DNA of 64,000 bases from Escherichia coli. GTDB taxonomy: Bacteria; Pseudomonadota; Gammaproteobacteria; Enterobacterales; Enterobacteriaceae. The stretch is from NCBI RefSeq assembly GCF_044324875.1, contig NZ_CP172185.1; one strand, 5' to 3'. The notes below the pieces were generated by a model, which worked only from the letters and a program-made list of their open reading frames with translations, was not told the DNA's origin and made no database searches. Below are positions 1-45,898 of the stretch, piece after piece. A program made the translations under genes and the position numbers. How positions within the stretch are numbered: position 1 is the stretch's first letter; each line of letters opens with the position of its first letter.

Positions 1-489
1 TGCCCGACGCGTCATTAAATCCGCAGGCAACATTTTCGCTTCAATACAATGTTTTAACGTTTGTTCTATACGGTCATAACTTTCCAGACAGAGATTACGT
101 TGTGCCTGTTGCACAACAGCCATTTCTCCGACAAATTCGCATTTGTGGAATATAATCTCCATCAATAATCGACGCCGTTCTTCTGTCACCGTGGATTCAA
201 GAACATGAATTAATATCTCTCTTAATACTGAGAGTGGATCGCCAGGGAATTTTGCCTGATACTCAAGCTCTAGTTCACCAATATTGGATTCTGACAGTTC
301 CCAGATCTCACTGAACAAATCCGACTTGTCTTTAAAATGCCAGTAGATTGCACCGCGCGTAACGCCAGCTGCTTTTGCAATCTCGCCCAGCGAGGTGGAT
401 GATACCCCCTGCTGTGAGAAAAGACGTAGAGCCACATCGAGGATGTGTTGGCGCGTTTCTTGCGCTTCTTGTTTGGTTTTTCGTGCCAT
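1..489 (-). CDS. acrR: AcrR TetR-family repressor of acrAB; 3' end runs off the window start
   Basis: Reverse-strand ATG at 487-489 reads MARKTKQ..., matching E. coli AcrR; no stop before position 1; divergent from acrA. Confidence 0.9.
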
Positions 490-517
490 ATGTTCGTGAA
501 TTTACAGGCGTTAGATT

Positions 518-541
518 TACATACATTTGTGAATGTATGTA
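518..541. promoter_or_regulatory. AcrR operator, 24-bp palindrome in the acrR-acrA divergent promoter region
   Basis: tacatacatttgtgaatgtatgta is a perfect inverted repeat; this matches the AcrR binding site as I recall it. Confidence 0.8.
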
Positions 542-630
542 CCATAGCACGACGATAATATAAACGCAGCAATGGGTTTATTAACTTTTGACCATTGACC
601 AATTTGAAATCGGACACTCGAGGTTTACAT

Positions 631-1824
631 ATGAACAAAAACAGAGGGTTTACGCCTCTGGCGGTCGTTCTGATGCTCTCAGGCAGCTTAGCCCTAACAG
701 GATGTGACGACAAACAGGCCCAACAAGGTGGCCAGCAGATGCCCGCCGTTGGCGTAGTAACAGTCAAAACTGAACCTCTGCAGATCACAACCGAGCTTCC
801 GGGTCGCACCAGTGCCTACCGGATCGCAGAAGTTCGTCCTCAAGTTAGCGGGATTATCCTGAAGCGTAATTTCAAAGAAGGTAGCGACATCGAAGCAGGT
901 GTCTCTCTCTATCAGATTGATCCTGCGACCTATCAGGCGGCATACGACAGCGCGAAAGGCGATCTGGCGAAAGCCCAGGCTGCAGCCAATATCGCGCAAT
1001 TGACGGTGAATCGTTATCAGAAATTGCTCGGTACTCAGTACATCAGTAAGCAAGAGTACGATCAGGCTCTGGCTGATGCGCAACAGGCGAATGCTGCGGT
1101 CACTGCGGCGAAAGCTGCCGTTGAAACTGCGCGGATCAATCTGGCTTACACCAAAGTCACCTCTCCGATTAGCGGTCGCATTGGTAAGTCGAACGTGACA
1201 GAAGGCGCATTGGTACAGAACGGTCAGGCGACTGCGCTGGCAACCGTGCAGCAACTTGATCCGATCTACGTTGATGTGACCCAGTCCAGCAACGACTTCC
1301 TGCGCCTGAAACAGGAACTGGCAAATGGCACGCTGAAACAAGAGAACGGCAAAGCCAAAGTGTCGCTGATCACCAGTGACGGCATTAAGTTCCCGCAGGA
1401 CGGTACGCTGGAATTCTCTGACGTTACCGTTGATCAGACCACCGGGTCTATCACTCTACGCGCTATCTTCCCGAACCCGGATCACACTCTGCTGCCGGGT
1501 ATGTTCGTACGTGCACGTCTGGAAGAAGGGCTTAATCCAAACGCTATTTTAGTCCCGCAACAGGGCGTAACCCGTACGCCGCGTGGCGATGCCACCGTAC
1601 TGGTGGTTGGCGCGGATGACAAAGTGGAAACCCGTCCGATCGTTGCAAGCCAGGCTATCGGCGATAAGTGGCTGGTGACAGAAGGTCTGAAAGCAGGCGA
1701 TCGCGTAGTAATAAGTGGGCTGCAGAAAGTGCGTCCTGGTGTCCAGGTAAAAGCACAAGAAGTTACCGCTGATAATAACCAGCAAGCCGCAAGCGGTGCT
1801 CAGCCTGAACAGTCCAAGTCTTAA
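631..1824 (+). CDS. acrA: AcrA multidrug efflux periplasmic adaptor lipoprotein
   Basis: ORF 595..1824 trimmed to ATG 631 (MNKNRGFTPLAVVLMLSGSLALTGC lipobox), 397 aa; directly upstream of acrB. Confidence 0.95.
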   Translation: MNKNRGFTPLAVVLMLSGSLALTGCDDKQAQQGGQQMPAVGVVTVKTEPLQITTELPGRTSAYRIAEVRPQVSGIILKRNFKEGSDIEAGVSLYQIDPATYQAAYDSAKGDLAKAQAAANIAQLTVNRYQKLLGTQYISKQEYDQALADAQQANAAVTAAKAAVETARINLAYTKVTSPISGRIGKSNVTEGALVQNGQATALATVQQLDPIYVDVTQSSNDFLRLKQELANGTLKQENGKAKVSLITSDGIKFPQDGTLEFSDVTVDQTTGSITLRAIFPNPDHTLLPGMFVRARLEEGLNPNAILVPQQGVTRTPRGDATVLVVGADDKVETRPIVASQAIGDKWLVTEGLKAGDRVVISGLQKVRPGVQVKAQEVTADNNQQAASGAQPEQSKS

Positions 1825-1843: not shown

Positions 1844-4996
<3,153 letters not shown>

Positions 4997-9879: not shown

Positions 9880-10269
9880 ATGCTGGTTTCTTGCGCAATG
9901 CGACTTCACTCGGGCGTTTTTCCAGATTATGCTGAAAAATTACCTCAGGAAGAAAAGATGGAAAAAGAAGATTCATTTCCCCAACGCGTCTGGCAAATCG
10001 TCGCCGCTATTCCCGAAGGCTATGTCACCACTTACGGTGATGTGGCGAAACTGGCAGGATCGCCCCGCGCCGCGCGCCAGGTGGGCGGTGTGTTAAAGCG
10101 TCTCCCTGAAGGCAGCACCTTGCCCTGGCACCGGGTGGTTAATCGCCACGGCACAATTTCGCTAACCGGACCGGATTTACAGCGTCAACGACAGGCATTA
10201 CTGGCAGAAGGTGTGATGGTATCGGGAAGCGGGCAAATCGACTTGCAGCGTTATCGCTGGAACTACTAA
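9880..10269 (+). CDS. atl: Atl (YbaZ) alkyltransferase-like DNA-binding protein
   Basis: ORF 9859..10269 (TTG in track) trimmed to ATG 9880, MLVSCAMRLHSGVFPD..., 129 aa. Confidence 0.88.
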   Translation: MLVSCAMRLHSGVFPDYAEKLPQEEKMEKEDSFPQRVWQIVAAIPEGYVTTYGDVAKLAGSPRAARQVGGVLKRLPEGSTLPWHRVVNRHGTISLTGPDLQRQRQALLAEGVMVSGSGQIDLQRYRWNY

Positions 10270-10292
10270 CCCTCTCCGGGCGGAGAGGGTTA
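10270..10292. terminator. Hairpin between convergent atl and ybaY, probable bidirectional terminator
   Basis: ccctctccg gg cggagaggg, a perfect 9-bp stem immediately after the atl stop; weak U-tract. Confidence 0.55.
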
Positions 10293-21848: not shown

Positions 21849-22092
21849 AGCGCAATAACCTTACGTTGTTTTTATAAAAACTGTTATAAGTGCAAAATGG
21901 CATCTGAATCGATCGCAGTTTGGCATTCGAATCGATCATGATTTGGCATCCATCTCCGATCACAGTTTGGCATCACAATCGATCACGATTTGGCATGCTT
22001 CCGATCATTGATTGGCATCCTGCCAGTCACTCCGGGAATTAACTCTTTTCACCACAGTCTCCATTGCCGTGTTTAAACCAGTGGAGACGTCA

Positions 22093-23658
22093 ATGTCCAG
22101 AAAGAGAAAATCCAGGAGCACTATGGAAACCTGTTTTAAGATCCTTCAGCTCAAGTTCGACAAGAAGCTGACTAACCGTTGTATCGGACTGACGTTACAC
22201 ATCAGCGCCTCAACCGTTTTTGAGGTTCTTGCCCGCTTCAAAGCCTCTTCTCTGTCATGGCCATTACCTGCTGATATATCCCATGACACGCTGGAGAAAC
22301 TCATTTTTCCGCCCAAAGACACCTTTGCATCAGAGCTTGTAATGCCTGACATGTTGTACTTCGATACGGAAATGAGAAAACCAGGTGTGACGCGGCAACT
22401 GTTGTGGATGGAATACAAGGCACAGGCGGGTAACAAAGCGATGGGATACTCGCACTTCTGCCGTTGCTACCGGGAGTGGAAAAAAACGCGACGTCTCTCC
22501 ATGCGCCAGGAGCATCGTGCCGGCGAAAAGCTTTTTATCGACTTCTGTGGTCCTACGGTTCCTGTTATTAATCCGGACACCGGTGAGATACGCCGCGTGG
22601 CAATCTTCGTGGCCGTAATGGGGGCGTCCAACTATACCTACGTTGAAGCGTGCGAAGGTCAGGACATGATGTCATGGTTAAATGCCCACAGCCGTTGCCT
22701 GACCTTCCTGGGCGGCGTACCGAAGCTGCTCATCCCCGATAACCTCAGAAGCGCAGTGAAAAAGGCCGATCGATATGAGCCTGTCATCAACGACAGTTAT
22801 CAGGCACTGGCTGAGCACTATGGCACGGTTATCATCCCGGCCCGACCACGCAAACCTAAAGATAAACCAAAAGCAGAAAACGGCGTCCTCATCGTTGAAC
22901 GATGGCTTCTTGCCCGCATCCGTAATGAAACCTTCCACACGCTCAGGGCGCTGAATGCGCGCCTTAGGGAGTTACTGACAGACATGAATAACCGGCCAAT
23001 GAAGGGGTACGGCAATCAAACCCGTGCAGAACGCTTCCGCATACTGGATGCGCCAGCACTCTCTCCGCTGCCTCTGGCACCTTATGAATACACGGAATAC
23101 AAAGCTGTGAAGGTTGGCCCTGACTACCACGTTGAATATGCCCGTCACTGGTACTCCGTTCCACACGAACTGGTCGGTCAGCGTCTGTCACTGAAGGCGG
23201 GGCAGTCGGTGGTACAGCTCTGGCACAAGGGGCAGTGTGTGGCGCAACATCCGCGCAGCACACATGAATATAAACACACAACCAATCCGCTTCACATGCC
23301 AGAGCGCCACCGGCAGCACGGGACATGGACACCGGAACGCCTGATCGAGCAGGGAAAACGTACGGGCCCGTCCACAGGCCGGGTGGTTGAATCCATGCTG
23401 AAGGCAAAACCCCATCCGGAACTGGCTTATCGTGCAGTTCTGGGGCTGCTGGCACTTCAGAAAAAATACGGCCCGGAACGGCTGGAAAAGGCCTGTTACG
23501 TTGCCCTGCACTATAACGCCCCTGACAGACGCTTTATCGACAATCTGCTGCGTCACCATCGGGAGAACCTGGAGCTTCCATTATCCCGCCAGGGCGAACA
23601 ACATCCGGCATATGCTTCAGAGCATGAAAACCTGCGTGGTCCGGGCTACTACCACTGA
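22093..23658 (+). CDS. istA: IS21-family transposase IstA
   Basis: ORF 22012..23658 trimmed to ATG 22093 (ggagacg SD-like sequence upstream); large transposase-sized protein, IstA-like by pattern; start could instead be ATG 22123. Confidence 0.8.
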   Translation: MSRKRKSRSTMETCFKILQLKFDKKLTNRCIGLTLHISASTVFEVLARFKASSLSWPLPADISHDTLEKLIFPPKDTFASELVMPDMLYFDTEMRKPGVTRQLLWMEYKAQAGNKAMGYSHFCRCYREWKKTRRLSMRQEHRAGEKLFIDFCGPTVPVINPDTGEIRRVAIFVAVMGASNYTYVEACEGQDMMSWLNAHSRCLTFLGGVPKLLIPDNLRSAVKKADRYEPVINDSYQALAEHYGTVIIPARPRKPKDKPKAENGVLIVERWLLARIRNETFHTLRALNARLRELLTDMNNRPMKGYGNQTRAERFRILDAPALSPLPLAPYEYTEYKAVKVGPDYHVEYARHWYSVPHELVGQRLSLKAGQSVVQLWHKGQCVAQHPRSTHEYKHTTNPLHMPERHRQHGTWTPERLIEQGKRTGPSTGRVVESMLKAKPHPELAYRAVLGLLALQKKYGPERLEKACYVALHYNAPDRRFIDNLLRHHRENLELPLSRQGEQHPAYASEHENLRGPGYYH

Positions 23659-23674
23659 CAGAAGGAACAACAGT

Positions 23675-24430
23675 ATGAGTGATAACCTGTTAAACAAACT
23701 GACCCAACTGAAACTCCCGGCGATGGCCGGGAGCCTGATACGGCAGCGGGAAACGCCTCAGACCTACGACGAACTGTCGTTCGAGGAAAGGCTGACGCTG
23801 CTGGTTGATGACGAGCTTCTGAGCAGGGAAAACAGCCGTGTGGCACGGTTGAGAAAAAATGCCGGCCTGAAATACCAGGCAACACCGGAAGGGCTGCGCT
23901 ATCCGGCCTCAAGAGGTCTGCGGGCTGAACAGATGAGAGAACTGCTGAACGGCCACTACATAACCCACAGGAAAAACCTGCTGATAACCGGTCCGACAGG
24001 ATGTGGCAAGAGCTGGATAGCCAATGCGCTGGGCGAACAGGCATGTCGACAGAAACACAGCGTCCGGTACTGTAGAACCGGGCGATTACTGGAACAACTG
24101 GCTCAGGGACGTGTTGATGGCAGCTGGCTGAAATATCTGAAACAGTTGCAAAAAATACAGGTTCTAATCCTGGACGATCTGGGGCTGGAACAGTTAAGTA
24201 ACGCCCAGTGTAATGACCTTCTGGAGCTCATAGAGGATCGTTACGGACAAAGCAGCACGATAGTGGTAAGCCAGTTCCCGGTAGATAAATGGCATGGTCT
24301 GATGGAGAACCCAACAACAGCAGATGCCATCCTGGACAGACTGGTACATAACTCACACCGAGTGGTCCTTCAGGGAGAGTCACTGAGGAAAAATCCCCCG
24401 GTAGTGGAAAGCAGCGAAAAAACGCGTTAA
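23675..24430 (+). CDS. istB: IS21-family ATP-binding helper protein IstB
   Basis: ORF 23432..24430 trimmed to ATG 23675 (aagga SD), 251 aa; Walker A GPTGCGKS and Walker B VLILDDLG; 16 bp after the istA stop. Confidence 0.85.
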   Translation: MSDNLLNKLTQLKLPAMAGSLIRQRETPQTYDELSFEERLTLLVDDELLSRENSRVARLRKNAGLKYQATPEGLRYPASRGLRAEQMRELLNGHYITHRKNLLITGPTGCGKSWIANALGEQACRQKHSVRYCRTGRLLEQLAQGRVDGSWLKYLKQLQKIQVLILDDLGLEQLSNAQCNDLLELIEDRYGQSSTIVVSQFPVDKWHGLMENPTTADAILDRLVHNSHRVVLQGESLRKNPPVVESSEKTR

Positions 24431-24545
24431 AAAGCGGTAGAAAAAGTTAAGTTCCCGGTTGATCGAATGGATGCGAATCGCTGATCGGACTTCGATGCCA
24501 ATCCGTGATCGAATAGAGCGGAATACGCAATAAGTACAGAGGTCA

Positions 24546-26991
<2,446 letters not shown>

Positions 26992-42091: not shown

Positions 42092-42239
42092 CACAACCTC
42101 TCAGTTAAAAAGGTGCTACGGCACCTTTTTTCTTAGCATTAGAATCATATCCCTCTCGAAATATTTACTAAAAAATCCGCATGTTTACCCCATTCGTTTG
42201 CCGCTTTACACTAGTCGCGAATTTAAAACAGAGGTGGTA

Positions 42240-45870: not shown

Positions 45871-45898
45871 ACGTCGCATCTGACCAGATGCGACGTAA
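45871..45898. terminator. Perfect palindrome between convergent yajL and thiI (REP-like, bidirectional terminator candidate)
   Basis: cgtcgcatctg acc cagatgcgacg, an 11-bp perfect stem. Confidence 0.55.

What the first reader, a model, noticed from the sequence alone, without database searches (positions are those of the whole stretch)
518..541. AcrR operator palindrome in the acrR/acrAB divergent promoter
The perfect 24-bp inverted repeat tacatacatttgtgaatgtatgta lies between the divergent acrR start (489) and acrA start (631). It matches the AcrR binding site as I recall it, so the local repression circuit for this efflux pump appears intact.
Basis: partly seen in the sequence, partly recalled or inferred. 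Interest (0 to 1): 0.2.

Follow-up and report, generated by a model that had tools for sequence, protein, structure and literature searches.

The report
Known AcrR repressor binding site
This short palindrome is the textbook DNA site where the E. coli repressor AcrR sits to hold down the AcrAB drug-efflux pump; it is base-for-base identical to the laboratory strain K-12, so it is real but ordinary.

Summary
The sequence TACATACATTTGTGAATGTATGTA is at window 518-541, between the acrR start (489, minus strand) and the acrA start (631, plus strand), as reported. It is two perfect 10-nt arms (518-527 and 532-541) around a 4-nt spacer, TGTG, that is not palindromic. "Perfect 24-bp inverted repeat" is therefore slightly overstated.

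It matches the published 24-bp AcrR-binding site of the acrAB promoter at 24 of 24 positions. Window 1-700 differs from K-12 MG1655 at one synonymous base. The 141-bp intergenic region occurs in 5423 of 5426 complete E. coli genomes.

In 80 Enterobacterales species found through AcrR homology alone, a near-identical site lies 27-29 nt from the acrR ATG. The left arm is invariant, the right arm is 98% conserved, and most variation is in the spacer. Arm changes are never compensated, which fits protein half-sites rather than an RNA hairpin.

A consensus scan places the acrAB -35 and -10 hexamers at 516-521 and 540-545, so bound AcrR would occlude the promoter. A perfect marbox lies in acrR codons 1-7.

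"Circuit intact" holds only for what the window contains: the operator, AcrR residues 1-163, and full-length acrA and acrB. AcrR codons 164-215 lie outside the window. This is already known and of low interest.

The parts
518..541 (.). AcrR operator, 24 bp: TACATACATT-TGTG-AATGTATGTA
   Evidence: Sequence read. Identical to the published AcrR-binding site. Present with 0-3 mismatches, 27-29 nt from the acrR ATG, in 80 of 80 Enterobacterales loci.
518..527 (.). Left (acrR-proximal) half-site arm, TACATACATT
   Evidence: Perfect inverted-repeat arm. Invariant in 80 of 80 species.
528..531 (.). 4-bp non-palindromic spacer, TGTG
   Evidence: This is the most variable part across species (TATG, TGTG, TGCG, CGCG, TTTG, CGGG), but G531 is invariant.
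532..541 (.). Right (acrA-proximal) half-site arm, AATGTATGTA
   Evidence: Perfect complement of the left arm. 98% column identity. The only changes are one-sided, at 532 (5 species) and 537 (9 species).
1..489 (-). acrR, codons 1-163 of 215, cut by the window edge; a TetR-family repressor
   Evidence: The translation is identical to K-12 AcrR residues 1-163. Pfam TetR_N (residues 16-62) and TetR_C_2. RefSeq annotation is acrR.
470..489 (-). marbox (MarA/SoxS/Rob activator site) inside the first codons of acrR
   Evidence: Perfect match to AYNGCACNNWNNRYYAAAYN, the only one in 64 kb; shuffles give a mean of 0.06. PMC11642870 places the acrAB marbox in the first 21 nt of acrR.
516..545 (+). Predicted sigma-70 acrAB promoter: -35 TTTACA (516-521), 18-nt spacer, -10 TACCAT (540-545). 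The operator fills the space between the hexamers and overlaps both.
   Evidence: Consensus scan, 9 of 12 matches. Both hexamers are almost invariant across 80 species. The transcription start site was not verified here.
555..584 (-). Predicted sigma-70 promoter for acrR: -35 TTAATA (584..579), -10 TATATT or TATTAT (562..555). It would place the operator in the transcribed leader of acrR.
   Evidence: Consensus scan only. acrA-acrR is listed as a divergent pair with overlapping transcripts (PMC12288877). AcrR regulates its own expression (PMC9769551).
631..1824 (+). acrA, the periplasmic adaptor of the pump; first regulated gene
   Evidence: 397-aa reading frame from the ATG at 631. Membrane-fusion Pfam domains. 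RefSeq annotation.
1847..4996 (+). acrB, the RND permease; second gene of the regulated operon
   Evidence: 1049-aa ORF. Collinear with K-12 acrB.

Best explanation
Window 518-541 is the operator of AcrR, the local TetR-family repressor of the acrAB multidrug-efflux operon, in an Escherichia coli chromosome.

Each 10-bp arm is a half-site read by the N-terminal helix-turn-helix of an AcrR subunit. The literature proposes two dimers on opposite faces of the DNA (a dimer of dimers). The site fills the space between the predicted acrAB -35 (516-521) and -10 (540-545) hexamers and overlaps both. Bound AcrR would therefore keep RNA polymerase off the acrAB promoter. The site also lies in the path of the divergent acrR transcript, which would account for autoregulation. 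When pump substrates or metabolites bind the C-terminal domain of AcrR, the protein leaves the DNA and acrAB is derepressed. MarA, SoxS or Rob, acting at the marbox (470-489, inside acrR codons 1-7), activate the same promoter independently.

Shown here: sequence identity to the characterised site, its position, its conservation, and the intact N-terminal 163 residues of AcrR. Taken from the literature: binding, repression, ligand release and stoichiometry. Inferred: the promoter hexamers and hence the occlusion geometry.
For: - The 24-mer is an exact 24/24 match to the published AcrR site 5'-TACATACATTTGTGAATGTATGTA-3'.
- Window 1-700 equals K-12 MG1655 except for one synonymous base.
- The 141-bp intergenic region is present in 5423 of 5426 complete E. 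coli genomes, at 99% identity or more in 5419.
- In 80 species, collected by AcrR protein similarity only (60-99% identity; Escherichia to Serratia and Erwinia), the site sits at a fixed distance from the acrR ATG. The left arm is 100% conserved, the right arm 98% and the spacer 83%. These arms are the best-conserved stretch of the intergenic region.
- The adjacent gene encodes a TetR_N plus TetR_C_2 protein identical to K-12 AcrR over residues 1-163.
- The promoter-like hexamers bracket the site.
- Purified AcrR shifts the acrAB promoter fragment (PMC9769551).
- Drug-selected mutations fall in the intergenic region overlapping this site (PMC11702832).
- AcrR regulates its own expression, and the 141-bp divergent arrangement is as published.
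Against: Nothing contradicts the explanation. The gaps are these:
- Binding was not, and cannot be, tested here.
- The primary papers that defined the site could not be read, so the method (footprint or oligonucleotide binding) and the stoichiometry are second-hand.
- The transcription start sites were not verified; the promoter assignment rests on a consensus scan at 9 of 12 matches.
- No AcrR-DNA complex turned up in the PDB sequence search. AcrR itself appears only as 2qop, 3bcg and 3lhq, which I recall as DNA-free structures.
- The last 52 codons of acrR are outside the window.
Confidence: 0.95

Rival explanations
1. The inverted repeat acts mainly as an RNA hairpin in a transcribed leader, for instance the acrR 5' leader or the overlapping divergent transcripts. 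It would control mRNA stability or translation rather than serve as a protein-binding operator.
For: As RNA the + strand folds into a 10-bp stem at -11.9 kcal/mol (z = -3.66) and the - strand at -9.2 kcal/mol (z = -2.23). acrA-acrR is listed among divergent gene pairs with overlapping transcripts (PMC12288877). The predicted acrR promoter would transcribe through the site.
Against: Across 80 species there is no compensatory change. All 14 arm changes are one-sided and break the pair: 522:537 T:A to T:T in 9 species, and 527:532 T:A to T:T or T:G in 5. The predicted acrAB -10 ends at 545, so the site lies upstream of the acrA transcript. Any palindromic operator folds well by construction. Direct AcrR binding to this promoter is published.
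Confidence: 0.03
2. The site is chiefly the target of a different regulator, with AcrR secondary. Candidates are the AcrR paralogue EnvR/AcrS, or OmpR as proposed for Yersinia.
For: In Yersinia enterocolitica a likely OmpR site in the acrAB promoter overlaps the AcrR site (PMC4403819). From my own knowledge, EnvR/AcrS has been reported to repress acrAB.
Against: The cognate repressor gene is adjacent and co-conserved with the site in 80 of 80 species. Loss of acrR derepresses acrAB in several studies. Other factors are described as additional, not alternative.
Confidence: 0.02
3. It is a chance AT-rich palindrome, or conservation due only to the promoter hexamers, with no operator function.
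For: The site overlaps the predicted -35 and -10 hexamers, which are themselves conserved.
Against: The hexamers cover only 518-521 and 540-541 of the site, yet 522-527 and 533-539 are also invariant or nearly so. No shuffle reproduces the pattern. The symmetry is exact over 10 + 10 nt.
Confidence: 0.005

Closest known systems
AcrR operator of the E. coli K-12 acrR-acrAB intergenic region (Su, Rutherford and Yu 2007; used as reference site in PMC9769551 and PMC10597343)
   Same: Identical at 24 of 24 bases. Same 141-bp intergenic region, same distance from the acrR ATG, same flanking genes, same marbox.
   Different: Nothing in the site itself. The host strain is not K-12: the window is about 98% identical to K-12 overall and carries extra DNA elsewhere.
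AcrR operators of other Enterobacterales (Salmonella, Citrobacter, Enterobacter, Klebsiella, Serratia, Erwinia and others)
   Same: Same arms, same spacing of 27-29 nt from the acrR ATG, same divergent acrR/acrA layout.
   Different: The spacer differs: TATG is commonest (32 of 80), and the TGTG found here occurs in 23 of 80. Some genera carry one-sided changes in the right arm (A537T, A532T/G).
QacR IR1 and TetR tetO operators (other TetR-family repressor sites)
   Same: Palindromic operator in or next to the promoter of a divergently transcribed efflux gene, with ligand-induced release. AcrR is suggested to bind as a dimer of dimers, like QacR (my own knowledge).
   Different: Unrelated sequences. 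From my own knowledge, tetO is a 15-bp site bound by one dimer and occurs twice, and QacR IR1 is 28 bp. Here there is a single 24-bp site.
TtgR and MtrR operators (closest AcrR relatives with solved structures)
   Same: TtgR and MtrR are the nearest PDB relatives of AcrR (E = 2e-44 and 2e-32). They also repress RND pumps from a divergent or adjacent promoter.
   Different: Different operator sequences and different hosts. From my own knowledge, DNA complexes exist for these two but not for AcrR.

Membership tests
AcrR operator (acrAB promoter, Enterobacteriaceae) | Sequence matches the experimentally characterised 24-bp AcrR-binding site | tested here: met
   24 of 24 identical to 5'-TACATACATTTGTGAATGTATGTA-3' as printed in PMC9769551 and PMC10597343, and to K-12 MG1655.
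AcrR operator (acrAB promoter, Enterobacteriaceae) | Two 10-bp inverted repeats separated by 4 bp | tested here: met
   Arms 518-527 and 532-541 are 100% complementary with a 4-nt spacer. This matches the description in PMC10597343.
AcrR operator (acrAB promoter, Enterobacteriaceae) | Lies in the 141-bp region between divergent acrR and acrA | tested here: met
   acrR ATG at 489 (minus strand), acrA ATG at 631, intergenic region 490-630 = 141 bp. Literature value is 141 bp. RefSeq annotations are acrR and acrA.
AcrR operator (acrAB promoter, Enterobacteriaceae) | Overlaps the acrAB promoter, so that binding blocks RNA polymerase | tested here: inconclusive
   A consensus scan puts -35 at 516-521 and -10 at 540-545, bracketing the site, and these hexamers are conserved. 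No experimentally mapped start site could be retrieved.
AcrR operator (acrAB promoter, Enterobacteriaceae) | Cognate TetR-family repressor with an intact DNA-binding domain encoded next to it | tested here: met
   Residues 1-163 are identical to K-12 AcrR. TetR_N covers residues 16-62, and R45 is wild type. Codons 164-215 are outside the window and were not seen.
AcrR operator (acrAB promoter, Enterobacteriaceae) | Conserved together with acrR in orthologous loci | tested here: met
   80 of 80 species loci, found by AcrR protein similarity, have the site with 0-3 mismatches at 27-29 nt from the ATG.
AcrR operator (acrAB promoter, Enterobacteriaceae) | Bound by AcrR protein and released by ligands | not testable with these tools
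   Literature only: gel shift of the acrAB promoter by purified AcrR, and the dimer-of-dimers proposal.
Structured RNA element (hairpin) | Base pairs maintained by compensatory changes | tested here: not met
   Zero compensatory changes. There are 14 one-sided, pair-breaking changes in 80 species.

The most novel reading that the evidence does not exclude
The site may be read asymmetrically. In 80 species the acrR-proximal arm never changes, while the acrA-proximal arm tolerates changes at 532 and 537, and the spacer base G531 is invariant although the spacer is not palindromic. The promoter hexamers cover only 518-521 and 540-541, so they do not explain this. One arm, or G531, could carry an extra constraint. 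Possibilities are a second factor, a different contact by the second AcrR dimer, or a role in the acrR leader. Genera with a weakened right arm might then run a higher basal level of AcrAB. The pattern rests on perhaps four to six independent substitution events, so it may be sampling noise.
Probability: 0.15. Interest if true: 0.2.

Novelty: already known. Interest (0 to 1): 0.06.

Why it matters
AcrAB-TolC is the main intrinsic multidrug-efflux pump of E. coli. Loss of AcrR repression, through acrR or operator mutations, is a common step toward clinical and laboratory resistance. Finding the operator, the marbox and the AcrR DNA-binding domain all wild type means this strain shows no sign, within the window, of that route to pump overexpression. 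That is a routine genotype call, not a discovery.

Tried and rejected
1. I tried to read the primary papers that defined the site (PMC2104644, PMC2254304) and the TetR-family review (PMC1197418). None is held.

2. I tried to identify the source genome so as to read acrR codons 164-215. The best complete E. coli genomes are only 99.4% identical over window 1-25000, and none has the IS21-family insertion at this place. The rest of acrR could not be inspected.

3. I considered an RNA-hairpin reading. The site folds well, but there is no covariation and the changes that do occur break pairs. Rejected.

4. I looked for further AcrR-like sites in the 64-kb window. There is none within 3 mismatches.

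5. I searched the literature for a mapped acrAB or acrR transcription start. I found only figure legends without coordinates, so the promoter geometry stays a consensus-scan inference.

6. I considered chance or promoter-only conservation. Rejected.

Full report
**Observation**

Window 518-541 reads TACATACATTTGTGAATGTATGTA. The repeat finder and my own script agree on its structure. There are two perfectly complementary 10-nt arms, 518-527 (TACATACATT) and 532-541 (AATGTATGTA). They are separated by four bases, TGTG, whose reverse complement is CACA. The literature describes the same site as two 10-bp inverted repeats connected by a 4-bp spacer (PMC10597343).

The flanking landmarks are right:
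- The + strand reads CAT at 487-489. Translating the minus strand from 489 gives [10 protein letters not shown]..., which runs to the window edge.
- The ATG at 631 opens a 397-codon frame, followed by a 1049-codon ORF at 1847-4996.
- The intergenic region 490-630 is 141 bp, the published distance between acrR and acrAB (PMC9769551).

**Chance**

The arm pattern, allowing up to three mismatches, occurs once in the 64-kb window and in none of 100 shuffles. Perfect inverted repeats of this size (arms of at least 10 nt, spacer of at most 10 nt) occur at only six places in the window. Dinucleotide-preserving shuffles give a mean of 0.85 register counts.

**Identity**

A full-text search for the 24-mer finds three papers. 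All give it as the AcrR-binding site of the acrAB promoter and cite Su, Rutherford and Yu 2007.

Alignment of window 1-700 to K-12 MG1655 shows one difference, at window position 4. That base is the third position of codon 162, and both versions encode Arg. The 163 AcrR residues in the window are identical to K-12. They carry Pfam TetR_N (residues 16-62) and the start of TetR_C_2. R45, which I recall as a site of resistance-associated substitution, is wild type.

RefSeq annotates the matching DNA as acrR and acrA in E. coli. The 141-bp intergenic region is found in 5423 of 5426 complete E. coli genomes, at 99% identity or more in 5419.

**Conservation outside E. coli**

I collected loci through the AcrR protein, not through the palindrome. 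This gave 80 species of Enterobacterales with AcrR identity from 99% down to 60%. In every one, the best match to the site has 0-3 mismatches and starts 27-29 nt from the acrR ATG.

| Segment | Window coordinates | Mean column identity |
|---|---|---|
| Left arm | 518-527 | 1.00 |
| Spacer | 528-531 | 0.83 |
| Right arm | 532-541 | 0.98 |
| acrR ATG to operator | 490-517 | 0.80 |

The spacer varies (TATG 32, TGTG 23, then TGCG, CGCG, TTTG and CGGG), except that G531 never changes. The only arm changes are A537T (9 species) and A532T/G (5 species). None is compensated in the other arm. This is the pattern expected of two independently read protein half-sites, not of a selected RNA stem.

**Surroundings and mechanism**

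A sigma-70 consensus scan finds, on the acrA strand, TTTACA at 516-521 and TACCAT at 540-545 with an 18-nt spacer. The operator therefore fills the gap between the acrAB hexamers and overlaps both. On the acrR strand the scan finds a -35 at 584..579 and a -10 at 562..555, which would put the operator in the acrR leader. These are consensus matches at 9 of 12 positions. I could not retrieve mapped start sites, so this geometry is an inference. The hexamers are almost invariant in the 80 species. E. coli acrA-acrR is also listed among divergent gene pairs with overlapping transcripts (PMC12288877).

The marbox consensus AYNGCACNNWNNRYYAAAYN matches once in the window, perfectly, on the minus strand at 489..471. 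That is acrR codons 1-7. Shuffles give a mean of 0.06 matches. It agrees with PMC11642870, which locates the acrAB marbox in the first 21 nt of acrR and shows it is needed for full derepressed expression.

Three further points come from the literature:
- Purified AcrR shifts the acrAB promoter fragment.
- AcrR regulates its own expression, and ligands release it from DNA.

Drug selection in continuous culture also yields noncoding variants in the acrR/acrAB intergenic region that overlap this site (PMC11702832).

The best explanation is therefore the standard one: a TetR-type operator that occludes the acrAB promoter and is relieved by ligand binding. MarA, SoxS and Rob provide independent activation from the marbox about 26 bp upstream of the -35.

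**Rivals**

An RNA-hairpin role is suggested by the fold energies: -11.9 kcal/mol (z = -3.66) on the + strand and -9.2 kcal/mol on the - strand. Any palindrome folds well, however, and the comparative data show pair-breaking, uncompensated changes.

Use of the site by other regulators, such as OmpR in Yersinia or EnvR from my own knowledge, would be additional to AcrR rather than a replacement for it.

Chance, or promoter-only conservation, is excluded. Positions 522-527 and 533-539 lie outside the hexamers and are nevertheless invariant or nearly so.

**What cannot be said**

The claim that the repression circuit is intact holds for the operator, the marbox, AcrR residues 1-163, acrA and acrB. 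The last 52 codons of acrR lie outside the window. No complete E. coli genome in the collection matches the window closely enough to stand in for it: the best is 99.4% identical, and none has the insertion sequence at 21878-24529. The primary papers were not available, so I cannot say whether the site was footprinted. The PDB sequence search returned AcrR itself only as 2qop, 3bcg and 3lhq, which I recall as DNA-free structures, and showed no AcrR-DNA complex.

**Novelty and score**

This is the known AcrR operator in its known place, identical to K-12. It is a correct and useful annotation with no new biology.

The one mildly curious residue is the asymmetric conservation: the left arm and G531 are invariant while the right arm is not. 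It rests on only a handful of independent substitution events.

Interest: 0.06.

Noticed in passing
window 21878-24529: A 2.65-kb IS21-family insertion sequence lies between ybaV and fadM. It carries istA (about 22090-23655) and istB (about 23672-24427) and is 99.7-100% identical to copies annotated as ISSso4. Four K-12 bases are duplicated at the junctions. K-12 lacks it, and no complete RefSeq E. coli genome has it at this site.
   Followed up: partly
window 51851-53422 (+): A 523-aa pentapeptide-repeat protein (Pfam PF00805) is encoded in about 2 kb of extra DNA between yajO and pgpA. It is absent from K-12 and present at this locus in 931 of 5426 E. coli genomes. Function not examined.
   Followed up: partly
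window 60185-60701 (-): A ParE toxin (104 aa) and ParD antitoxin (80 aa) pair is inserted between yajD and secF. It is absent from K-12 and present in 424 genomes, including E. coli 042.
   Followed up: partly
window about 50631: About 126 bp of the K-12 yajO-dxs intergenic region (K-12 438150-438275) is missing from the window. It may be a repetitive extragenic element in K-12; not examined.
   Followed up: no
window 470-489 (-): A perfect MarA/SoxS/Rob marbox lies inside acrR codons 1-7. Missense changes in the first few acrR codons, such as the Thr5 variants selected in PMC11702832, may therefore act on the activator site as well as on the protein.
   Followed up: partly
L084 1406-2500 (E. 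coli Z1323CEC0008, chicken): An IS481-family element of about 1.1 kb sits between the acrR ATG and the operator, with TTAGAT (window 511-516) duplicated at both junctions. The operator and the acrAB core promoter stay intact, but the marbox and acrR are moved about 1.1 kb away. The effect on pump expression is unknown.
   Followed up: partly
L004-L083, operator columns corresponding to window 518-541: Conservation of the operator is asymmetric. The left arm is invariant in 80 of 80 species. The right arm changes at 532 (5 species) and 537 (9 species). Spacer base G531 is invariant although the spacer is not palindromic. The commonest spacer is TATG, not the TGTG of E. coli.
   Followed up: partly
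window 10267-10292, 24538-24562, 42107-42130, 45871-45896, 53518-53539: These are the five other perfect inverted repeats in the window with arms of at least 10 nt and short spacers. I assume they are terminators or repetitive elements, but I did not check.
   Followed up: no
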